DNA of 64,000 nt from the NCBI RefSeq assembly GCF_009914755.1, contig NC_060925.1; one strand, given 5' to 3'. The position numbers were made by a program, and so were the translations under genes. The notes beneath the pieces are model-generated. The model saw only the letters and a program-made list of their open reading frames with translations. It was not told the origin of the DNA and did no database searches. The stretch comes from the human T2T-CHM13v2.0 reference genome, Homo sapiens. Each line of letters starts with the position of its first letter. The stretch's first letter is position 1. Positions 22,527 through 37,232 of the stretch are shown piece after piece.

Positions 22527-23148
<622 letters not shown>

Positions 23149-24649
23149 TCAAATAAAACAGTTCAAACCACCCCTACAATACTGTCCTACTATGTGTGTT
23201 AACCACTCAAAAGAGGTCAAACACACAAAAAGACATGGCTAAAAGAATTAAAATGCTAACTAACTAATATCCTCACTAGTCCTTGATCTTCTAGTGAGGA
23301 AGAGGATGGGTGCAGCCAACATGAGTCCTCTCCTGCAGAGCCACACCCTTGACAATGGAGATAAATGTGCACGTATGTCCCCTTGAAAGGTTGCACCTTT
23401 CCTGCTTTGGCTAGAGCCTCTGTCATGGTGCCACGTGGTTTCTATGTAAATCAGCTGGCGGGTAGAATCATTTCTGACCAGTTTAGGGAGGTTCTGGGCA
23501 ATGTTATCTTTGCCTTCCTACCTCCCTCACTACTCCCTCCCCACCACTGAACACAGTACTTTTTACTAGAAAACATCCAAGCTAACAGATTCTCAGTACA
23601 AGTAAAAATGTTGCCTCTCCAGCAGATAGAAAAATGAACAGATAAGTTAAAACTTACAAAATTAAATCTGATGTTTATTCCATCATTAGTGTAGAAACAC
23701 AGATCACATATACCTGAATATGCAAAGAAAGTTAAATTATGATGCAATCAATGCTATCCTATAAAAACTAAATTAACAAAAATAGTCTATTAGGGAAGAC
23801 ATCTGGTGTATCATGGCAAGAAATGTTAATGATATTGTCTGCAACCCTGTAATCAATTTTTTCTCCCAGCAGCTCTCTCATTACACTGTATTAGATCTGT
23901 GTGCCTTGCAGGATTTATGAGAACTCCACATATGGGGAAGCTTTGCCAACTGGATCTGATTCAGATCCAGCTCAAATGACTTTGGCAGCACAAAGCATCA
24001 TTAAAGAACAATCAATACAGTTAGCTTTATGTAGCATCATCTTGACTGAAAGAAGATTTATCCTTTCACTACAGAATCTCTTACACCTACATATAATGTA
24101 CCCAAGTGCTCCACCAGTCATGAACTTATTTAAATCATCAGTAGACACAAATATTTTTATTGCTAAAAAATAAATACTAATCATTAATTCTAATATAAAA
24201 AGTTTACAAAAAAATTAATGTTATTATGGGGAAGACTTAAAATCCATTCAGCAATTCCTGTTGAGTATTACAGTAAATAAAAGTATTAATAATAGCATCC
24301 ACATTGATTAAGAAAATATCAGCCTGAAAGTAAAACCTACTTTTTAGATATATGTGGAAATAAGACATATCGGTAAATAAGACATATTGGTAATTGCTAA
24401 AGGCTGAAGCTTTAGAAGTAGGTAGTCACATTGGGAATCTACTAATTTGTCCCGTAAGATGTCAGTCTTTCTCTGGGAATTAAAATTAGACTTTTATCTA
24501 TACTACACTGGGTTCTGTCTTCCACTGTAAGACAGAGAATTCCAAGGTTTCCATAATGTGAAACCCCCATCCCTTTTTTTGGTATGACCCTTGAGTAATT
24601 ACATCAGCAAATATGTAAACGTGTTATGCTGTTGCAACAATTACTCCTG

Positions 24650-25250
24650 ATTTGGTTACAATTATCAATATATCATCTCTACTGTCTTGGTCCTCTTCAT
24701 CTTACCCATGAATGGCGGCCCTAGCCTTCTACTTGGAATTTTCACCATCTTTCCCCGTTCCACACTGCAAACTGCTACAGTCAATCTTCTTAAGCAGTGG
24801 CCTGCAAGATGGCTTGCCTAGAGTAAAAAAGCTTACACAGGCTCTCTACTGCCTATTACACAAAATCTTAACTTTGCTAACTTTGAAGATCCTCTATAAT
24901 CTAGCCCCATTTATATCTCCACATCTGCCTCCCAAAATCCACTAACCTGTGCTCTTCAGTGACGTCCTGCGGGTCATCTTCTCACAACTCCCAGACTCGT
25001 CAGCCTCACTGCCTGCGTTGCTTATAAGGACAGGCTGCCATGTACACCTGGAAGGCTCCTACACTCTGCCTATCCACTTCTTATTGATGTATGAAAAACA
25101 TACCCAGCTCCTCAAAACCTACCCACCCTCACAGAACTTCCCCAAGTGCCACAGCCCATCTGGAGCACTTTCTTTTCTACGACCCAAGATATTAATATTC
25201 TACACTGCAGCTGAACAACTCACCATATATTGACAGTATCTTGCATTGTG
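24650..25250 (+). mobile_element. L2 relic
   Basis: Pyrimidine-rich L2-like motifs (ccacactg...aatcttcttaa; ctctataatctagcccc). Confidence 0.5.
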
Positions 25251-25874
25251 TGTGTCTAAGTGTGAGAGAGCTTGCTATCCTCTTGTATTATTTGCTAATT
25301 CAGTATGAACTGGGGCACCACAGTCACTTCTTTACACTGACGTCAATGTAACTGCAACTACACTTCTTTCATATTAACCCACTAGTCATTCAGAATAATA
25401 AATACTCGACTTTCAGAAAACACTACCATTAAATCCTCCATTAAGTCCTACCATTACAGGAAAAAAAAGGAAGACAAGTGTGAACTTTCCTAAAAAAAGG
25501 GAGATGTACTAAACGATAATAACCCCTATGATCACCCACATGGGTCCCTGTGTTTTAAGGGATAAAGCACTACAGATACTTCATCCTGCTGCCTCTTACA
25601 CATCCCTCAGGACCACCACTAGTAACAGAGGAATAACCAAGGGATAGCCGTTAAGAAGTATAGCTACAGCCCGACCCAAGCCTCTTGAAGGGCATATTCT
25701 GCATCTAGCACTGGAGAAAAGCCTCGCTATTTCTGAGCAATACCCTACAAAATGTCACCCGAGAGGACAACACCCAAAATAGTTTAGATTGGTGGGCCAT
25801 GAGTCCCAATGAGCCTGGGGAAACGCACATTCCACACTTGAGCTCAAACTTACCCCCTTTTTTCCCCATTTCAG

Positions 25875-26020
25875 TTGCCAACATCCATACTCGCTGCTGA
25901 TTGCCAGCTCCTGCTCCTTGCAGCAGCCCAGCATGCTCTCTGCTGGTGCCAAAATACCCTTCCACCAAACCCCGCTAACTTCTGGAACTGTCCTAGAGGG
26001 GTAAGGCAAGTCCCGTATTT
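25875..26020 (+). repeat. Diverged inverted copy of the 126-nt RERE exon plus its donor region (inverted-repeat arm)
   Basis: Hand alignment 79/127 identities with two 1-nt gaps; 17-nt exact core CCCAGCATGCTCTCTGC; GTAAGGcaagTCCCGTaTTT vs GTAAGGagaaTCCCGTtTTT. Confidence 0.85.
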
Positions 26021-26172
26021 TGCTTCCTCTGTGCATGTACTTGTTACTCCTTTAAAAACACATATAATACAGCACATTTTAAAAGGGGCTCTGGGGAGGG
26101 AGGTAATATTCCTATTTTATACCCTATGGGATATAAAATACTGATAGCTTTTAAAAACGGGATTCTCCTTAC

Positions 26173-26298
26173 CCCTACAGGCCCTCTCCCGGCTTCAGAA
26201 AGATGCTGTGGTGGCTGTGATGCCACCGGCAGAGAGCATGCTGGGGGGTCACACAAAGCAGGAGTTGGAGATCTGCAACAGGCCTGGGAGTTGTGGAC
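26173..26298 (-). CDS. RERE: RERE coding exon, 126 nt, phase 0-0: [42 protein letters not shown]
   Basis: ttttcttttttag|GTCCACAAC...CCTGTAGGG|gtaagg; follows QDFKL in the RERE protein as I recall it. Confidence 0.95.
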
Positions 26299-28672
26299 CT
26301 AAAAAAGAAAACAGTTTTAAGTTAACGTGCCCAACGCCCCATCATGCCCTGGTTATTAGGGGCACGCAGCACACAAGTCGGTATCTGCAAAAACTCTTTA
26401 GCAGATGACCTCTGAAACCTCAGATAATTTGTTCTACCACTAAAGTTAACCTTTTTGCATTAATCAAAGCTGTTACCTTATTTCAGTGTGAACAAACGTA
26501 TGACCCTTCTGGCTCCACACTTTAATCCAGGTCCTATCATAAAGCAGTATGGTGTGTGCCCCTCAAAATAACCAAGTTAAGATGTGAGATAGTGCCAAAG
26601 CACAGTTAACAGCAACATGCTATGCTTATAATAAAAACAGAAATGCAATGGTGTCAGATACAACCGTAAAATGAATCACAAGTGGACAAACTGAGCTTTC
26701 AGAAGAGTTTCTAATGACAGAAGCTAGAGACATAAGACATGTACTTAATAAGGAAATAGGGCATTTGGGTGGCCAAAGAAAGGCCCTGCCATTTTCTCAA
26801 AGTTCAAGTTTAACTGTATAAAGCTGAAGGCAAAGTAAATAGACAAAGGCCCCAAAACAGAGGGAAAAAGACAATATTCACATGAGTTATAATTTTCTCC
26901 AAACGCCCACAAGGTGAGTATAATGAATAGGCACAGAGCATAAAGTTCCAGAAAGACATTACTTATTTTTATAGGCAAAACTAGTTTAGTATGTATCACG
27001 TGTCTTTTTAAAATTAACTTTGAAAACATTTAAAAACCAGGAAAAAAAAGACTATAGAGCAACTTCTGAAAGCTAGCACAGTATACCTCAGATAACAGTT
27101 TGAGTATGTTCCTTTTCAAATATTTTAGACAGCACATAACATTTTTAAACCAATTTCATGTGGTTTTGAATGAACTAAAAAAAATCCATAAAATCCCAAT
27201 ACTTATATAAGAACCTGTCTTACGGTTGTCTAAAAATTACAGATGAACAACCTTTTAATATTAGATCATTATTAGGGTGTCCTGTTACACATAATTCCCT
27301 TTGAAAAGCAAAGAGCAATTAACAACTTTCTGTAAACAAAGATTTTAATATATTTCATTATCTATTTTTGTAAGTCTCTTAAGCTCCCTACACATAGACA
27401 CACACACACACACACAAAACAAAACAAATACCAGGAAAATAAGCTAATGTTCAGAATGTTTTATCATGATCATTTTCTTTTCTTTTTCTAAAGATGACCA
27501 TCTAGAGTACATCCTGGGATCTACACTAAAATTTCTGTGCAGTCAGTCTCTGATTCTCATGGCCTCAGTGATAGTATAGCTGACAGAGTGTCAGTAGCCA
27601 CAACCTTCTCACCACACACCTTCTCCCCACCATCACCAACACTGCAAACTCCAAATTAAAGATTCAATTGTGCACTTGAATGTACAGCATATTCAATATT
27701 TTTTGCCAGAAGCATCAAAATAAAAATGGACTTCTGGATAATCTCTTCCACTAGGAATATGACTGCCCAAACCACTCAAATCCTTACATTCAAATTAAGG
27801 GTTTTAAATCAAAAACACCTGGTAAAGCATTTCCAGACACTTTGGCATTATTTTAAACATGCAAATAGTTCAAGTAATTATTAAAACATTTTATATATTT
27901 TAAAGAGGCATTTTTTCAAAACAAGTCATTGTTCTCACATACGAAATGAGAAAACTTTGACAGTATCTGTTTCCCTAATTTTTTTTTAGTACTTCTAACA
28001 GGTTTTTCTTGGACTATTGAGTTGGTTCTTAATGCAAGCATCCATATATACATACAAATTACAAATTTCCAATTGAAAAGAATTAAGTTTGAACAAGACT
28101 TTACCAATATTCTTGCACAGTAGATGGCTGCAAATATCAGATTGTCTCAACCTTTCTTAAGCTCCTTTAAAATTAGAATACCTAGAGTTTTCTGCATTGA
28201 AAAAAATTTCACATATAGATAACAATTTTAGTAAATAACATTTTCAGAAATATATTTTATGGAAATATATATAATTAAACAAAACTTTTTCAATAGTTTC
28301 TTAGAGTCCCTTGACCCAAGTAAATTAGAAGAAAATGAATTACCCAACCTCACAGTAGTAGTTAAACACTAAAACTTAAAATCCCAAGTGCCCAACCCTG
28401 ACTGGCAGCCACGAGTGAAGACAAATTGCTGGCAAGCTCAGAAAATGGGGCCAGCAAAATGCTGGGATTATTTATTCCCAAGGCCTCATTTTGATTTCCA
28501 CTTATGTTAATACCACTCTGTCCACTAGAGGTTGACATCAGTATCATGCAAAAAGGATGTGGTCGTTCAAAAAACTTTCAACACCATTACTCCATAATTG
28601 TGGCGGGAGGGGAGTATAGATATACAACCTCCTCTGACTCAGTACACCAAACTCAGGGCTAAAGAATTCCAT

Positions 28673-28955
28673 CTTGCTTGATGCGGTGGTTCATGCCTGT
28701 AATCCCAACACTTTGGGAGGCCGAGGCGGGCGGATCACAAGGTCAGGAGTTCAAGACCAGCCTGGCCAATGTAGTGAAACCCCGTCTCTACTAAGAATAC
28801 AAAAACATAGCCGGGGGTGGTGGCAGGTGTCTGTAATTCCAGCTACTTGGGAGGCTGAGGCAGGAGAATCGCTTGAACCCAGAGGCGGAGGCTGGAAAGA
28901 GCTGAGATCGTGCCATTGCACTCCAGCCTGGGTGACAAGAGTGAAACTCTGTCTC

Positions 28956-28984
<29 letters not shown>
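28673..28984 (+). mobile_element. Alu (AluS-like)
   Basis: Dimeric Alu, long A tail; TSD AAAGAATTCCATC. Confidence 0.95.
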
Positions 28985-28986
<2 letters not shown>

Positions 28987-29699
28987 ATTCCATCCTACCT
29001 CTTAACTCTTAAAGAATTAAACAAAATTAGAAATCACAAATTTGTATGTGAAAAGGCCACTTGGTCCTTGGATATAATAGCTGAAAATACTTGATAACGA
29101 ACTTTAATGTAAAGTTTTTACTTCATTATCCAACACTACACAACAAGTCACAAAGGTGTAACTGGGTGATACTGACCTTTTTATATGGTACAAGCCAAGA
29201 AAGTAAAGAGAAGAAGGAGCTATAGAAAGAAATACTCAATTTTGCAGGCCTACCTTGAAGGACTGTCAAAAACAAAAACAGAAACAACTGATGTGTCACA
29301 CAGGAACAAATCATCATAGCGTAAGGCATTTTTCATAACAGTTGGCCTTTTCTGGGAGGTTCACACGTATACTAGGCCCTCATTTATCTTTGCTGAAAGT
29401 CAGTCATATGGAAAACTCAAAACAATATAATGATGCCTAAAAAATGTTATGACTTTGGCTACATTCATTCAAATTCGTGAAGAAAACAAGAAACTGAATT
29501 TTCTTCAAGTATTTTAAAAGAAATAAAGTTTTATTATTTCTATACATTACACACTGCAGGCTAACCAAAGGTAATTGAGTAGACTTCTTTGGCTTGTTTA
29601 AGAGAATGTTAATTTGTGTTGATGTATGCACTGTATCAAACAACTACTACTAAAGTTTTTTAAAAATACTTATCCAGTGAATTTATTCCAGTTAAATGT

Positions 29700-30050
29700 T
29701 ACTTCATTCAGTATTCAATAAATACTTACTGTGGACATTACAGCCAGCCAATGTGCTAAGCACACAATATATACATCAGTGAATAAAAAGCATAAACCTA
29801 AGGTACCAACTAAACATCAACATCACAATCAGTGTCATTCTATGGGGCACTGGACACTTTGTAAGTCTGACCTTTTAATCTAAAAACAATCTACTTGGCA
29901 AGGTAGGTACTTTATATCCCAACTTCACAGGTAACTAAAGAAAGTTAAGAGGCTTAAGTGTATTTCCTAAGGTCAGGAAAGATGGCAACTGATGGATGGA
30001 GTATGTGAACTCAGACAACCTGATGTCAAAGTCCGCGCTCTGAACCTGGG
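29700..30050 (-). mobile_element. L2 3' end and MIR relics
   Basis: ttcattcagtattcaataaatacttact (L2 end); aaggtaggtactttatatcccaacttcacagg (MIR core). Confidence 0.5.
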
Positions 30051-32739
30051 CAATCTACCATCCCTCATCTCAATCCCAGAATAACAGATCCTAAATTCTG
30101 AATTAGCCATGTTCAAATTATGTGCACCTTCCTGCCCACCCCCCAACCAAAAAAGGGCTCTAATGCAAGATTTACCTCCTTTTAAACGAATGCCCATTCC
30201 GTGAATGTCCATACACTACACCTTCTGTGCTAAGTGGTAACAGCCAAGCTGGGACTAAAGAAATGCAGTCGATAATGCGTAAGTCTGATAATTAAGTCAC
30301 TGTGTGTACACTTGAATGTGTGCACAAAGAGTATGTGTAATTAAGTCGCTATCTGATGATATCTCCCAGCATCATCTATGGTCCTAATAAGACATAATTA
30401 CTCATCCTCAGTAAGTTTTTATTACAAAGGAGGAGAAATAGCTTCTTGTTACTTTTAATCCATTTTTAAGAAAATAAATTTGGTGGAGGGCGGGCAATCT
30501 CAATGGCAAGTGGAACCTAAGATGAAGTTAATTTCTCTGCAGCCCTTCTGCTGTTGTACTGTCAGGGAAGGCATGAATAAAGGGTAGTGAGTAGCAAACA
30601 ACTTATGAGTACAGACCAGGCATAAGAGAGAAATTCCAAGTGTTTTTCCTCCAACTGCTCACATTTGACAATGAAACAACGAGAGGGATATGGTATTAAA
30701 CGATAAATAACTTGGCCCCCACATTCACAGCAATAATGGAAATGTGCATTCTCCAAGGTAACTAGTAGTATGCATCCTTAGCTATTCCACATTCAGAACC
30801 AGCATTTAGAAAGTAGGCTGTTAGGGACACAAATGATACAGCGGCATTCTCATCTATGTGGAGCCGTAACAATATGTCGAGCCCAGCTAACCATCACCTG
30901 AGACACTTTAACATCCCTAACTATCACCCCCAACTCTAAGGAATCTCTGTATCTGGCTTAACTTTAAGGACAATTTTCCAAGTTTTAATAAAACAGTTAA
31001 GGAACCAAAATGAATCAATATCATTAACCCAAAATAGTACTTATAGCTACATATACTACCTAGAAACTCATTTGGTATAAGTAACAGCTGAAACACCTAT
31101 GTAACTTTAGGAAACCAAAAGCATGTTTTCCTCTACTGTATGAATGACAGCAATGCAAGAATCCACACTGAATTTCCATGGAGACTATTACAGGACTGAG
31201 TTTGCTTACTTATCTGTGAATAAAGAAAGGTAGTAACTGCTACAAGGAACTACTTACTATACAAGGAACTCCTCAGTGCTATACTGAATGAAAATTAGTG
31301 TCTCCATGACCTTGTTAGCATTCTCGGACTCCATGATTACTTCCAGATGGCAAATTATTTGTATTATACTTCTTAATGCCTGGGTTTCTATAAAAATATG
31401 ATTTTATTGTTTTTCATAAACAAACAAATCATTTCTTTTAGAACTAAAGTGAATGCCCTTCTTGTCAATCCTATTCAGAATGTTCTCCAAAGAAGACTGA
31501 CATCCAATAATGCCACAAGTTGTCTGTCCACTTAGAATCTAAGATCACTGAGGGAATGAACAATATTTTATACTTCTTCAGTCTCCCTTTAGGTGCTGAG
31601 TTCCATAAAGAACACAAAGCAGGTATTCAGTAAATGCCTGTGGAAGTCCCTGATTATAGCTCAAAACATTTCTATTTGCACTCTGTGATATAATGCTCCT
31701 CAATGATATTGACTCATTCAGAACAAAACCCTAAAAGTAAGTAAGTCACATGGTGACCTATAAAAGCTATGGGAGGGCAGCAGAAGGGTTGGAGATATTA
31801 ATCTAGGCTCTTTCCATTGCAATTCATGAAGAGCCACTCAAGCTAGCCAGGTGAGAGCTCTTTACTCAGAGCGAACAGGATAATCTAAGAATCCTGTGGG
31901 AAGAACATCAGTGCAGTGGGACCCAGGAGAGTCAAGGAAGAGACGGCTGTGCACACACTTCCCTTGGCAGTCTGCTGCTCTTCCCACAGCTTGCCTGTCC
32001 TCTGCTTTTCCCAGTTTCCTACCCTAGCAAGTGAGCTTGCCTATGCCAGCCCTAACCTTGCTCTTGTCATTCAGGTAATTCTTTTATTTTTAATTTTTAC
32101 AGATATATTAGGGGTAATTCTTGAATTATCTATTCACCTTTCCCCTCTACTAACTGCCTCAGTCTCTCAGTTTCTCAACTCTAAATTCTAAAAATGAAAT
32201 TTGGCTCAATTAATCTTTTCATGCCAGGCCACAAGGATCACAGACTGTCATTCCGTATTACTAGTCCTTCAAAAAGCTAAATAAAGACTTTGCCAGCTAT
32301 TTTACTATTTAGTTCAGAAATCTACAGTGCGAAGCGACCTTTTTAATCAACAATACTTCTTTCTCCTGCTTCTAAGTACGTGCTGTCCCTAATTCTACCC
32401 TGCCTCTTCTGCTTGCCTGAGCTCCTGCTTTTGACTACTTCTTCCATAAATACTTTGGTCAGCGCATTCAAACAAAATCAGACCTCTCCATTTGTAAATA
32501 AGCCCAATCAAATGAATACTTCCTAAGAGAATGAAAGCTTCCTAATAGAATACATAATTCCTACCTTTAAAACCTCAGCTCAGTTAGGAACTTAATTGCT
32601 TGATACTATCACAGCCTCCACCTACCCTGTGGAAGTGTGGGCTCGAAATACACCTACCAGTGTAGGACGGTGGTGTCCCTATGTGTTTTGATGGTTGAAT
32701 ATTAATAAAGCAGAAGCCATGGATCTTATCCCCATAGGC

Positions 32740-32870
32740 AAGATAACCACACAACCTATCATCCACACTCAAGACATTTTTGAGAGTGAAAGGGGAGGCT
32801 GTTTAATAGTCTGGCAGGACAACAGACAGGGATCAGGACATAGAGGCAGCTGTGTTCTATACCACAGACT
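32740..32870 (+). mobile_element. MER94-like hAT-Blackjack MITE
   Basis: gacatttttgagagtgaaagggga...ggacaacag matches the recalled MER94 core. Confidence 0.65.
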
Positions 32871-34792
32871 CGATTCTAAGGGAATGCAGCAGCAGAGTAG
32901 AGAAGACAACCCAGGTCCCCACATAAAATACAAAGACCCTTCTCCTTATCTCATAAAGAGCTATTTCATGAAATGTGACCCAAGGCCCTTGGTTCAATAA
33001 ACTGCCATTATTCTAGCCTCGGTGACTGGCGGTAGATGTCTCCTCCTCCCCACGCCTCACCTCATTAGCTTTTGTTATCTTTAACATCGTAATCGTACCT
33101 ACTAATGTGTATCATAACGGGCATTCACCCAGTTACTTTTACAGTGCCCAAACATCCTTTATACACAAAATTTCACCACGGCAAAGGGATTCTCATTTAT
33201 AGTATAAACAATGAAACACATCTCTCAGTTATAACCCCAAACCAACTTTTTATTTTATGATTATTAAAAAGATAAAATACCTAATTACTCAACATTTCAA
33301 AGCCATCGGGTTTTTGTTTCTTTCATTGCTCCACTAGTCATGTTATTTGCTGGGAGCAAAATCAAATTCAATTTCTTCTTCTTCTTAAAATCTTGCAGAG
33401 AAACAAAGCTTATTTCCTTCTGCTCATCTTTTACCCTTATAGCTTCAGTAAACTGAAGGAGAAAAAAATCTTGATCATTCTCATCTGATTATCTTTTAAT
33501 AAGTACAGAGAAGTAAGAAAATAAGAAAGTGGAAATAACTATATTTATTCCCAGAGCAAATATTTCATCATCTGTTGTTCTTACACAACAACTATGAGGA
33601 TGTGCTGAATACAGAACCTCAAACAAAAACATGAGAAACAGCAGTGTGTGATTTAGAAAAAGGTATCTAAACATACTGCACCCTACTTCCCACACTGTTT
33701 TTGTAGACAGCTTTAATGTGTTGTATTAGACCAATACTGACAACAGAAGCTTTAGCTTTTATTGCTGTTAATACCCTGAGCAATTACCGTAACTCAGCAG
33801 GAACCTCTGCCCAGAACAGCAACTATCACATTGTAATCAGCATTTCATAAGAGATGCTGTTCAAACAGGAAGGCACCTGCTAATGTGCAAAAACTGTACA
33901 AAGGGGGCTCAAGATCTAATAGGTAAAATAAAAATATTTACAATTTTATTTCACAGCTATATATTTTTCACGGTGCACTGATGTTTGGTTTAGTAAAAAT
34001 CACACAAAAAGACAATGGGCAGGAAAAGGGCAGTAGCAGCAGCCACTACCAAAACAAAACTCTTCAGGAATAAGGCTACACCCGTATTTCAGGTGTCAGT
34101 GCTGTATCTGTTAAAAAAAAAAAAAAAAAAAAAAAAACACACACTTTGGAAGGAAAGATATAATAAGTAGCAAAGACCTCTAAAAATGGTTTTTAAAAAT
34201 TCATATAGACATAAAAACTGGATAGAAAGCATTTGATTTACAAGATTAAACTGCAAGGCCACCTTGCAATGCAACCAGGAAAGTTAAAAGCCGCTTATCA
34301 AGAATAGATCCATCTTAGAAGTAAATAGCACATTTGACTTCATCTTAAAACAGTAAGCATGCAATAACTTAAGCAATAACTTTTTAACAAAGAAAAATAA
34401 AATGTGATTTTTTTTTTTCTTACTGAATATACTACTTTGGTACTTGGGCCATTAAAAATGATAAAAAACAAAGGAGATGCAGAGAAAGATCTTTTCAAAC
34501 TACATTTCTTTAGACTGAAATATCACATACAACATATGTCAGAACACAAATATTGTCAAATTACAAAGGGTGTTGGAAATAAGAGCATTCACAGATAGTG
34601 ATACACATCTCTACAAAGCTAAGGAATTACGAATTCTCTAGGCCTAAGAGCACAGACAGTGGTTCACAATCTTCAAAGTACTAGGATCCCTTGTAAGATC
34701 AAAATGTTTCAAAAGATTCCCAAATGATACTACTTCAGTAGTATTTCAAATACCAATTGTTTGAGGAAAATAACAAACAAACAGTGGTTCCC

Positions 34793-35139
<347 letters not shown>

Positions 35140-35846
35140 TTAAAAATCATAAAAGCATACTGAAAACAGGCTGAAAAATCGTTGTCCAGACGTGTGAGAT
35201 CAATTTATTTACATCAAGCTTAGCATGTTTATTTGCAGACCTCTGCCAAATCTCTGCAGACATCCAGGGATCCAAAGCCTAAAGTGTGAGAACCACTGGC
35301 CCTAAAAAAGCGATTTCATAATGAGGAACATCAACACTTATATATTCAGGAAGAATTTTTAATGAGAAAGTACAGTAGCTATGTCCTTACTTCTGCAACA
35401 CATGCACTAAAACTGGAAAGAAAGTATAACAACTTTACCACGCCCAAGCCAGACTTCTTTCAACCGCTACCCCGGGAAACCCCCACAACAATTTCAACAT
35501 CATATACTCCACACCTGCCGAAATATTGAAGGAAGTGACAGGTTTCCACTGGAAACTATTCTCTGACCCGTTTATATTATTTCCCCTACTCATCAATTTA
35601 CTGAATTTACTTTACTTCAGGCTCTTAACAATGGCTGAGAAGAAACAAGCTACTTCAGAAATTCAAGGGACTATCTGAAATTGTCAAAAGTTACTAAAGG
35701 GATAAAAACTTCAGAAATATTGTTTACAATATAAGCATTATGAGAGTAAGTGTTACAAAGCTGAAAAGATGGAACTAGTAACCCTCATTTCAGTGCTACT
35801 GCCACGAGGCAGTTAGCACTCAAAAGGTGAACTGGTAACCACGTCA

Positions 35847-36143
<297 letters not shown>

Positions 36144-36749
36144 TTAAATTGCAAATATCTTTAGGCTAAAGGAAAACTGCCCTTTGGTTCTTTCTGATTA
36201 TTTTTCTAATAATTTAAAGAATCTGATGAAGCCTAAATTATTTTCTTCAGAGTCCCTGAAGAAGAAGGGGAGGAGTCCAAGGGATTATCCATATTCAGAT
36301 GAAGACATTTAGATAAAAGAAACCGCTTGCTCAAGATCACACATCAAGATGAAATCTTGAGTATCTTATTCAGATACATGTTCACATGTCTTCGAAAAAG
36401 AGAAACGGCTTTGCCACGTGCTACTATATTTGTAATAAATATTTTGTGAGGAAATAAATGAAATACGCAAAGATGACTAGCTTGAACATGCTATTACAAT
36501 GACCTTTTCAACTAATCAAAAAGAGAAAGAAAACTAATCTCTTACAGACAATTTGCCATTACATTGTACCCTAAACACATTTTATTTTCTAACTGTAAAC
36601 AAAACCAATGCCACTAATCAGAGATGGAATAAAGTAAACCAAATTGCATTTTCTTCAGGGAAGAAGGGTGCTTTCTTAAATTACATTTGACATGGCAGTG
36701 GTTGGAAAATAATTTTTGATGCTCTCAATGACTGGAGTGTAAAGCGTTG

Positions 36750-36885
36750 CTTTTGTTTGTTTGTTTGTTTGTTTTGTTTTGTTTTGTTTTGGCTGGTCTC
36801 CTCTCCAACTCCTGGGCTCAAGCAATCCTCCCACCTCAGCCACCCGAAGTGTCAGGATTACAGGCATGAGCCACCACGCTTGGCC
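36750..36885 (-). mobile_element. FLAM / Alu fragment with (TTTG)n(TTTTG)n tail
   Basis: Reverse left monomer; TSD GTTGCTTTT. Confidence 0.85.
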
Positions 36886-37094
36886 AAGGTTGCTTTTTAA
36901 AATGCCATGTTAAGACACTTAAATAAAAAGCAATGATTTTAAGGAAAGCAGTGGCTATAGAGAGAGTTAACCTCCTCCTACCCCCATATCACAACCTAAG
37001 ATCATCATAAAGCTTAGGTCAGGAAAGTCTACGTATTATTTACTGAAAAGTAAAGGCACAGTCAATGAAATCTAGGAATAGTGACCATAATGCC

Positions 37095-37232
37095 TCATTC
37101 ATTCATTCATTTTGCATAGACAGGGCCTCACTATGTTGCCCAGGCTAGTCTCAAACTCTTGGGCTGAAGCTATCCCCCTGCCTCGGCCTCCCAAAGTGCT
37201 GTGATTACATGCATAAACCACCATGGCCAGCC
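37095..37232 (-). mobile_element. FLAM
   Basis: Reverse left monomer; TSD CCATAATGCC. Confidence 0.87.

What the first reader, a model, noticed from the sequence alone, without database searches (positions are those of the whole stretch)
25800..26365. RERE 126-nt exon has an old inverted twin ~170 nt downstream: predicted pre-mRNA hairpin covering the exon and its 5' splice site
Seen: + strand 25875-26000 aligns to the exon sense sequence (revcomp of 26173-26298) at 79/127 identities by hand with two 1-nt gaps. The match includes an exact 17-mer and continues 16/20 into the donor region. Weaker similarity may extend ~60 nt into the acceptor side. In the RERE pre-mRNA the arms are complementary. 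14 of 22 transition mismatches give G-U pairs on this strand (8 give A-C), so about 93/127 positions could pair. Inference: a local stem that could mask GTAAGG from U1 and tune inclusion of a frame-preserving exon in a dosage-sensitive neurodevelopmental gene. I do not recall this being described but cannot search.
Basis: partly seen in the sequence, partly recalled or inferred. Interest (0 to 1): 0.88.

Follow-up and report, generated by a model that had tools for sequence, protein, structure and literature searches.

The report
RERE exon's inverted intronic twin
An old back-to-front copy of one RERE coding exon lies 132 bases further on in the intron, so the unspliced RNA can fold into a long hairpin, and published RNA editing at two letters of that exon fits the hairpin forming in cells.

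Summary
Window 25869-26020 (+) is an inverted homologue of 26304-26153, the RERE exon with both splice sites. Identity is 100 of 153 columns. The alignment scores 43 against about 10 for shuffles, other window tiles and 128 control exons. It is not a masked repeat. The only other copies are two identical chrY duplicates.

The RERE pre-mRNA is predicted to fold into a hairpin that survives 1-2.4 kb contexts and holds the 5' splice site in a perfect 10-bp helix.

The strongest outside evidence concerns RNA editing, not splicing. A 2026 paper lists A-to-I sites p.Q137R and p.T144A, which map to exon nt 14 and 34. In the hairpin, the more-edited A faces a C inside a helix and the other pairs with U.

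So the twin is most likely the editing complementary sequence, born by inverted duplication of the exon.

Regulated exon inclusion is unsupported: both RefSeq mRNAs spanning the exon include it, and there is no strand or G-U bias. The same 5' splice site is the back-splice donor of circRERE(4-5). Conservation across species could not be tested.

The parts
26173..26298 (-). RERE 126-nt coding exon: CDS nt 397-522, residues 133-174, phase 0; exon 5 of 24 in NM_012102.4 and exon 4 of 23 in NM_001042681.2
   Evidence: Annotation and CDS arithmetic; translation
26153..26304 (-). Exon arm of the inverted repeat: the exon plus 6 nt of the acceptor and 20 nt of the donor-side intron
   Evidence: Local alignment; significance
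25869..26020 (-). Twin arm. Its exon-like sense is on the + strand, so the RERE pre-mRNA carries the complement of the exon. It is a decayed pseudo-exon of 126 nt (25875-26000) that keeps an acceptor-like and a donor-like end. Proposed editing complementary sequence.
   Evidence: Three stops in the frame homologous to the exon. Not in a masked repeat.
26021..26152 (-). 132-nt spacer, the loop of the hairpin. It has its own 12-bp hairpin at 26113-26140.
   Evidence: The spacer halves show no inverted homology.
26167..26176 (-). 5' splice site region (last 4 exon nt plus GUAAGG) in a perfect 10-bp helix with 25997-26006. The same site is the back-splice donor of circRERE(4-5).
   Evidence: Pair probabilities 0.98-1.0; helix P 1.0 in larger contexts; 23-nt duplex -27.6 kcal/mol; circRNA coordinates and 197-nt length
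26265..26265 (-). Exon nt 34, CDS nt 430: published A-to-I site p.T144A. It faces C (25907) as a single A:C mismatch between a 3-bp and a 10-bp helix.
   Evidence: Table of PMC13107992; mapping
26285..26285 (-). Exon nt 14, CDS nt 410: published A-to-I site p.Q137R. It pairs with U at 25887 (P 0.95).
   Evidence: Table of PMC13107992
26229..26245 (-). 17-nt exact core of the stem (partner 25927-25943). It contains the palindrome GCAUGC.
   Evidence: longest run 17, permutation p 0.022; core pair probability 1.0

Best explanation
An ancient DNA-level inverted duplication copied this RERE exon, with both splice sites, into the intron just downstream. The copy has since decayed: K2P distance 0.455 between the arms, and three stops in the homologous frame. 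It is still recognisable, probably because the exon arm was held still by coding constraint (inferred). In the RERE pre-mRNA the copy is antisense to the exon, so the two fold into an imperfect hairpin of about 150 bp with a 132-nt loop. The next exon lies 57 kb away. By inference from typical polymerase speeds (recalled), the hairpin therefore exists for many minutes before the intron can be removed. During that time ADAR deaminates exon adenosines, giving the published recoding events p.T144A (about 14% in control tissue) and p.Q137R (3-5%) in the N-terminal part of RERE. The twin is thus the editing complementary sequence of these sites. The same hairpin buries the 5' splice site. That should slow U1 binding and could favour editing before splicing, but any effect on exon inclusion or on back-splicing to circRERE(4-5) is unshown. 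Shown: homology, predicted structure, position of the published sites in that structure. Inferred: that this duplex is what ADAR uses, the age, and any splicing effect.
For: The homology is far above chance. It is not a repeat family: it lies outside masked repeats, and the only other genomic copies are two identical chrY duplicates. The hairpin is the MFE and is robust to context. Duplex energy is -151.7 against a null of -80.8 +/- 7.0. PMC13107992 (table read; methods passages) lists RERE chr1:8614653 p.T144A, at 14.4% and 13.8% in the controls of two cohorts, and chr1:8614673 p.Q137R, at 2.9% and 4.9%. The exon encodes residues 133-174. Q137 and T144 are therefore its codons 5 and 12, and the 20-nt spacing matches exon nt 14 and 34. 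Of 23 exon adenosines only 2 face a C (nt 34 and nt 50). Nt 50 has a 5' G, so nt 34 is the higher-edited reported site. A G proxy for inosine at nt 34 lowers the MFE from -190.6 to -197.3. chr1 and the chrY copies carry the same base at both sites, so paralogue mismapping does not explain them. No other complement of the exon exists in the whole 57-kb downstream intron or the 9.6-kb upstream intron. Intronic complementary sequences, and inverted paralogous coding sequence acting as one, are an established pattern for coding editing sites (PMC8897444, passages).
Against: No experiment links the twin to the editing. The two sites come from one VarScan-based study and are marked as not in REDIportal v2.0. 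Apart from a possibly garbled 'p.T430S' label in PMC9704047, I found no other main-text report of them. The duplex near the sites is a chain of short helices with loops, not a long perfect stem. Conservation of the twin is untested. The G-U bias (p 0.29) and the equal fold of the opposite strand give no sign of selection for RNA pairing. A single comparison with another recoded exon (COPA I164V) was uninformative.
Confidence: 0.6

Rival explanations
1. One reading: the hairpin is a selected splicing switch that masks the 5' splice site from U1 and tunes inclusion of the in-frame exon.
For: The 5' splice site lies in a perfect 10-bp helix with pair probability about 1 in every context folded. 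Identity is highest at the donor, with 10 of 10 in the helix and 16 of 20 in the donor intron. The exon is 126 nt and phase 0, so skipping would keep the frame.
Against: The exon is in 2 of 2 RefSeq mRNAs that span it, and no skipping isoform is annotated. There is no strand asymmetry. The G-U excess is not significant. High identity at the donor is also what a frozen splice-site arm and a merely decaying copy would give. I ran no paper search on skipping of this exon, and annotation beyond RefSeq could not be consulted.
Confidence: 0.12
2. Pure fossil: a neutral relic of an old inverted duplication with no consequence in RNA. The reported A-to-G signals would then be artefacts or use another partner.
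For: Divergence is saturated (25 transitions against 26 transversions, K2P 0.455). Identity is flat across codon positions (23, 29 and 27 of 42). The twin has stops in the homologous frame. There is no sign of selection for pairing. The sites are not in REDIportal v2.0.
Against: Two A-to-G sites at reproducible levels in two cohorts fall in this exon, in contexts that fit the predicted duplex. No other complement exists in 67 kb of flanking introns. The predicted hairpin is very stable.
Confidence: 0.15
3. The hairpin chiefly shifts the balance between linear splicing and back-splicing, because the masked 5' splice site is the donor of circRERE(4-5).
For: circRERE(4-5), hsa_circ_0009594, is 197 nt, which equals 71 + 126 nt, the two exons of this window. 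Its hg19 start fits the lower edge of this exon (PMC13002853, passages; exon sizes).
Against: Known drivers of back-splicing pair the two flanking introns with each other (recalled). Here the twin pairs with the exon itself, and masking the donor should hinder back-splicing as much as linear splicing. I made no search for complementary sequences between the two flanking introns, and nothing links the twin to circRNA levels.
Confidence: 0.08
4. The twin survives because it is used on its own: as an exon of an antisense (+ strand) transcript, or as an intronic splicing enhancer through the GCAUG in its exact core.
For: The twin keeps a pyrimidine tract with AG and a GTAAGG donor on the + strand, and the same 126-nt length. 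One frame is open over 42 codons. The 17-nt exact core contains GCAUGC on both arms. That GCAUG is the RBFOX motif is recalled.
Against: No + strand gene is annotated here; the only RERE antisense gene lies about 180 kb away. An open 42-codon frame is expected by chance in roughly one frame in eight (my arithmetic). The longest-run test is only p 0.022, and the best 23-column window gives p 0.095.
Confidence: 0.05

Closest known systems
Exon-intron ADAR substrates with an intronic editing complementary sequence (GRIA2 Q/R and R/G sites as the classic cases; recalled, not checked here)
   Same: A coding exon pairs with a complementary stretch in the downstream intron. Editing must precede splicing. 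The edited A sits at an A:C mismatch or an A-U pair inside an imperfect helix. In GRIA2 R/G the hairpin also includes the 5' splice site.
   Different: Here the complement covers the whole exon and both splice sites (152-nt arms, 65% identity). It is visibly a decayed inverted copy of the exon, not a short dedicated element. Editing is modest (3-14%). Dependence on the twin and on ADAR is untested.
Coding editing clusters whose complementary sequence is a reversely oriented paralogous gene downstream (CLDN9/CLDN6, TOR1B/TOR1A; PMC8897444, passages seen)
   Same: The complementary sequence is a homologous coding sequence in inverted orientation, so duplication creates the double-stranded RNA in one step.
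   Different: There the partner is a live paralogous gene reached through an extended 3' UTR, and it gives large clusters of 10 or more sites. Here it is a dead single-exon copy inside the adjacent intron, with two reported sites. RERE does not occur in that paper's main text (0 occurrences); its supplementary tables were closed.
Hairpins that mask a 5' splice site and regulate an alternative exon (MAPT exon 10, SMN2 exon 7 TSL2; recalled)
   Same: The 5' splice site is held in a stable helix that would compete with U1.
   Different: Those stems are short and local, and the exons are demonstrably alternative. This exon is constitutive in RefSeq, and the stem is the base of a 150-bp hairpin.
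Reverse-complementary intronic matches that drive back-splicing (general mechanism recalled; circRERE isoforms)
   Same: An inverted repeat lies next to an exon that is circularised.
   Different: The pairing is exon to downstream intron, not upstream intron to downstream intron.
Tandem exon duplication giving mutually exclusive exons (recalled)
   Same: Duplication of a single exon together with its splice sites.
   Different: The orientation is inverted, so the copy cannot be spliced into RERE. The homologous frame has three stops.

Membership tests
ADAR exon-intron substrate (edited exon plus intronic editing complementary sequence) | A-to-I editing documented at adenosines of the exon | tested here: met
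   The table of PMC13107992 lists p.T144A and p.Q137R. They map to exon nt 34 and 14 by residue number and by the 20-nt spacing. This is literature evidence from one study, and the sites are marked as not in REDIportal v2.0.
ADAR exon-intron substrate (edited exon plus intronic editing complementary sequence) | An intronic sequence complementary to the edited stretch, giving a stable predicted duplex | tested here: met
   It is the only significant complement in both flanking introns.
ADAR exon-intron substrate (edited exon plus intronic editing complementary sequence) | The edited A sits in a favourable context (A:C mismatch or A-U pair, no 5' G; preference recalled) | tested here: met
   Nt 34 is AAC opposite C. 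Nt 14 is CAG paired with U. Only 2 of 23 exon adenosines face C.
ADAR exon-intron substrate (edited exon plus intronic editing complementary sequence) | Editing is lost when the complementary sequence is removed or when ADAR is absent | not testable with these tools
   Needs a minigene, a deletion or ADAR knockout data.
ADAR exon-intron substrate (edited exon plus intronic editing complementary sequence) | The complementary sequence and the pairing are conserved across species | not testable with these tools
   No vertebrate genomes are reachable. The chr1-chrY comparison has too few differences (2 in the twin arm, 5 in the exon arm).
Splice-site-masking regulatory hairpin | The 5' splice site lies inside a stable helix | tested here: met
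   A perfect 10-bp helix with P about 1.0; -27.6 kcal/mol for the 23-nt duplex.
Splice-site-masking regulatory hairpin | The exon is alternatively included | tested here: not met
   It is present in 2 of 2 RefSeq mRNAs spanning it. Only RefSeq was available.
Splice-site-masking regulatory hairpin | Strand-specific signs of selection for pairing (G-U bias, covariation) | tested here: inconclusive
   14 against 8 transitions, p 0.29. z is -5.45 against -5.56 for the two strands. Covariation is not testable.
Back-splicing driven by flanking-intron complementarity | Complementary sequences lie in the two introns that flank the circularised exons | tested here: not met
   The twin's partner is the exon itself. 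circRERE(4-5) does use this exon's 5' splice site. Pairing between the two introns was not searched.
Inverted pair of transposable elements | The arms belong to a repeat family | tested here: not met
   It is outside the masked repeats; the nearest are 22944-23149 and 28680-29038. Each arm has 3 genomic matches: itself and two chrY duplicates.
Described structured RNA family (Rfam, including microRNA precursors) | A match to a curated covariance model | tested here: not met
   Across 25000-27200, both strands, there is one chance match at 16 bits against a gathering score of 44, E 0.88.

The most novel reading that the evidence does not exclude
One ancient inverted duplication of a single exon created, in one step, a lasting RNA device. 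It supplies the ADAR substrate that recodes RERE (Q137R, T144A). It also holds the 5' splice site closed so that editing precedes splicing during the long wait for the 57-kb intron, and so sets the balance among edited mRNA, unedited mRNA and circRERE(4-5). The stem core and donor helix would then have been kept by selection since before the eutherian radiation.
Probability: 0.12. Interest if true: 0.7.

Novelty: new member of a known kind. Interest (0 to 1): 0.45.

Why it matters
RERE is recalled to be a dosage-sensitive gene of neurodevelopment. Two recoding sites were reported in it in 2026 without a structural explanation. Naming the likely complementary sequence, and its exact partner bases, makes the editing directly testable by deleting the twin, blocking it with an antisense oligonucleotide, or making compensatory changes. 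It also gives a handle for asking what Q137R and T144A do. More generally it is a clean example of how a site-selective editing substrate can arise in a single mutational step, by inverted duplication of an exon into its own intron, and stay usable after heavy decay because the coding arm cannot drift. It also warns that the same structure touches a 5' splice site used for both linear and circular RERE RNAs.

Tried and rejected
Extension of the homology beyond the acceptor was tested and rejected.

A transposable-element origin was rejected.

A known RNA family was rejected.

A coding or mutually exclusive twin exon was rejected: the copy is inverted and has three stops in the homologous frame.

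Paralogue mismapping as the source of the editing calls was rejected, because chr1 and chrY share the base at both sites.

Another partner for the exon in the flanking introns was not found.

The chr1-chrY copy as a test of constraint has too few differences and no outgroup. The twin arm has 2 differences and the exon arm 5. There are none in 25898-26079, where, by my arithmetic, about 0.06 gaps of that length are expected among 303 events. The Y copy should be neutral, so constraint on chr1 cannot be read from this.

COPA I164V was tried as a comparison substrate. It showed no long inverted homology (scores 11-12, equal to the null) and no clear hairpin in the MFE, so it was uninformative.

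Pfam gave nothing on the 42-residue exon peptide.

RERE orthologues could not be fetched. The protein word search sees only proteins of 0.55-1.75 times the query length, and a joined coding sequence may not be typed, so the exon's own age and the ancestral states were not examined.

Paper searches that found nothing:
- RERE with 'conserved complementary regions'.
- 'editing complementary sequence' with 'inverted duplication'.
- RERE with 'RNA editing' and ECS.
- 'inverted duplication' with exon, ADAR and intron gave 8 papers, none relevant by title or abstract.
- RERE with 'editing sites' gave 3 papers. Two report RERE recoding; the third only cites a circRERE paper.

None was on skipping of this exon. 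Supplementary tables of PMC9704047, PMC8897444 and PMC13107992 were closed; they may list these or further RERE sites and their coordinates.
Full report
WHAT IS THERE. The RERE exon at 26173-26298 (minus strand) is 126 nt long and in phase 0. It encodes residues 133-174 of the 1566-residue protein. It is exon 5 of 24 in NM_012102.4 and exon 4 of 23 in NM_001042681.2. A 9,638-nt intron lies upstream and a 57,043-nt intron downstream.

On the plus strand, 132 nt beyond the exon's donor side, 25869-26020 aligns to the exon read in its own sense (26304-26153). The alignment has 153 columns, 100 identities and two one-base gaps. The copy keeps a pyrimidine tract and AG at one end, GTAAGG at the other, and the same length of 126 nt (25875-26000). 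So a piece of genomic DNA holding the exon with its splice sites was duplicated in inverted orientation.

IS IT MORE THAN CHANCE. The alignment scores 43.
- 2000 dinucleotide shuffles give 10.4 +/- 1.5, with a maximum of 20.
- 894 other tiles of the window, both strands, reach at most 16.
- 440 tiles of the remaining 31 kb of the downstream intron reach at most 16.
- 0 of 128 internal coding exons from 19 other chr1 genes have an inverted match of 20 or more within 600 nt; the maximum is 16.
- The other RERE exon in the window scores 12.

The suggested extension beyond the acceptor is not there.

The pair is not a repeat family. It lies in a stretch without masked repeats from 23150 to 28679. 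Each arm has only three matches in the genome: itself and two chrY copies.

AGE AND DECAY. Between the arms there are 25 transitions and 26 transversions in 151 compared columns, giving K2P 0.455. A ratio near 1 means saturation. Identity is flat over codon positions at 23, 29 and 27 of 42. Read in the frame homologous to the exon, the twin has three stops and keeps only a short recognisable stretch. A second frame is open over 42 codons but is unrelated.

My inference is that the exon arm was frozen by coding constraint and nearly all change fell on the twin. That would also explain why detectable homology stops at the exon and its splice sites, since in the introns both arms drifted. With recalled neutral rates for the human lineage, 0.45 substitutions per site points to an event before the eutherian radiation. 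This is a rough estimate and rests on no call. The exact 17-nt run is longer than expected for evenly spread mismatches (permutation p 0.022), but the best 23-column window is not (p 0.095).

THE HAIRPIN. The minus strand of 25840-26330 folds into the long hairpin at -190.6 kcal/mol. Shuffles give -153.4 +/- 6.8, so z is -5.45.
- 88 of 126 exon bases pair with the twin, 14 of them as G-U.
- The last four exon bases and GUAAGG (26176-26167) form a perfect 10-bp helix with 25997-26006, with pair probabilities of 0.98-1.0.
- When 1.0, 1.5 and 2.4 kb are folded, 95 of 112 arm pairs stay in the MFE. The donor helix and the core keep probability 1.0.
- The two arms alone give -151.7 kcal/mol against -80.8 +/- 7.0 for shuffles.

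The opposite strand does as well (z -5.56; -148.5), and the G-U excess is not significant (p 0.29). The sequence itself therefore gives no sign that pairing in the RERE transcript was selected.

THE OUTSIDE EVIDENCE. PMC13107992 (IOVS 2026) was read for its results section with the table and for methods passages. Among its top missense A-to-I sites it lists:
- RERE chr1:8614653, p.T144A: 14.4% and 13.8% in the controls of two cohorts, 7.7% and 4.3% in disease.
- RERE chr1:8614673, p.Q137R: 2.9% and 4.9% in controls, 1.4% and 0.4% in disease.

Coordinates are hg38. Reads were uniquely mapped, dbSNP positions were removed, and both sites are marked as not in REDIportal v2.0.

Residues 137 and 144 are codons 5 and 12 of this exon. 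The two adenosines are exon nt 14 and 34, exactly 20 nt apart as in the paper. That places them at window 26285 and 26265.

In the hairpin, nt 34 is a lone A facing C (25907) between a 3-bp and a 10-bp helix. Nt 14 pairs with U at 25887. Only 2 of the 23 exon adenosines face a C. The other one has a 5' G, which ADARs are recalled to disfavour. A G in place of the A at nt 34, standing in for inosine, deepens the fold by 6.7 kcal/mol. The chrY copies have the same base as chr1 at both positions, so mismapped paralogue reads do not explain the signal.

PMC9704047 (passages) names a brain recoding site 'p.T430S' in RERE that rises about 10% through development. Residue 430 is Glu in the long isoform and His in the short one. 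An A-to-G change cannot turn Thr into Ser. CDS nt 430 is, however, the first base of the T144 codon. I therefore suspect a garbled label for the same site. This is inference, and the supplement was closed.

BEST READING. The twin is the editing complementary sequence for these sites. The arrangement is the classic one: an edited exon, a complement in the downstream intron, and editing before splicing. PMC8897444 (passages) shows that coding editing sites commonly rely on intronic complements, and that inverted paralogous coding sequence can play this part. What is particular here is that the complement is a whole dead copy of the exon, with its splice sites, inside its own intron. No searched paper describes it.

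The 57-kb downstream intron means the hairpin can exist for many minutes before the intron is removed. This is inferred from recalled polymerase speeds.

The donor is predicted to be fully buried, so slower U1 binding is plausible. But the exon is in both RefSeq mRNAs that span it. I found no evidence of skipping, and I did not search the papers for it.

The same donor is the back-splice donor of circRERE(4-5), hsa_circ_0009594. That circle is 197 nt, the sum of the 71-nt and 126-nt exons of this window. Its hg19 start is consistent with the exon's lower edge, using my T2T-to-hg38 offset from the editing sites and a recalled hg38-to-hg19 offset (PMC13002853, passages). Whether the hairpin helps or hinders that circle is unknown.

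LIMITS. No vertebrate genome, duplex-capture data, editing database or non-RefSeq annotation was reachable. The link between the twin and the editing rests on position and predicted structure alone. The editing itself rests on one study's table, plus a probable second mention.

VERDICT. It is an old inverted exon duplicate that most likely serves, perhaps only as a by-product, as the ADAR partner of two reported recoding sites. Its role as a splicing switch is unproven. It is a new member of a known kind, of moderate interest, and directly testable.

Noticed in passing
window 24432-37202; G000 C24 about 25.39 Mb and 27.01 Mb; C15:19187914-19194086: A segment of RERE holding both exons of this window and the twin is duplicated twice on chrY. 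The two Y copies are identical over the 6.5 kb aligned and about 95% identical to chr1. chr15, next to REREP3, holds 31000-37202 but not the exon or twin. The RefSeq gene table used here shows no gene at the Y copies.
   Followed up: partly
window 26284 and 25888: Two of the few chr1-versus-Y differences face each other in the stem. chr1 has a G.A mismatch and the Y copy an A-U pair, directly 3' of the Q137R adenosine. With no outgroup the direction cannot be told. By my arithmetic, such a coincidence has a chance of roughly 0.07.
   Followed up: partly
window 25898-26079: There is no chr1-versus-Y difference over 182 nt (most of the twin and the inner spacer), against about one event per 21.5 nt over the 6.5 kb aligned. 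The Y copy should be neutral, so this is not evidence of constraint on chr1. It remains unexplained.
   Followed up: partly
PMC9704047 (Discussion); CDS nt 430 = window 26265: The RERE recoding site printed as 'p.T430S' fits residue 430 of neither RefSeq isoform (Glu, His) and cannot arise from A-to-G. CDS nt 430 is the T144 codon, so the label may be a garbled c.430A>G.
   Followed up: partly
window 26229-26245 and 25927-25943: The 17-nt exact core contains the palindrome GCAUGC, so both arms carry GCAUG in the RERE transcript. That this is the RBFOX motif is recalled. One copy lies about 230 nt downstream of the 5' splice site.
   Followed up: no
window 25332-25351: A 20-nt palindrome centred on TGACGTCA, recalled as the cAMP-response-element consensus, lies about 520 nt from the twin (repeat finder I10).
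   Followed up: no
window 26113-26140: The spacer between the arms holds its own 12-bp hairpin with a 4-nt loop, seen in the MFE of both strands.
   Followed up: no
window 23150-28679: This 5.5-kb stretch around the exon has no masked repeat of 100 nt or more. chr1-versus-Y divergence is also lower from about 25900 to 27100 than in the flanks.
   Followed up: no
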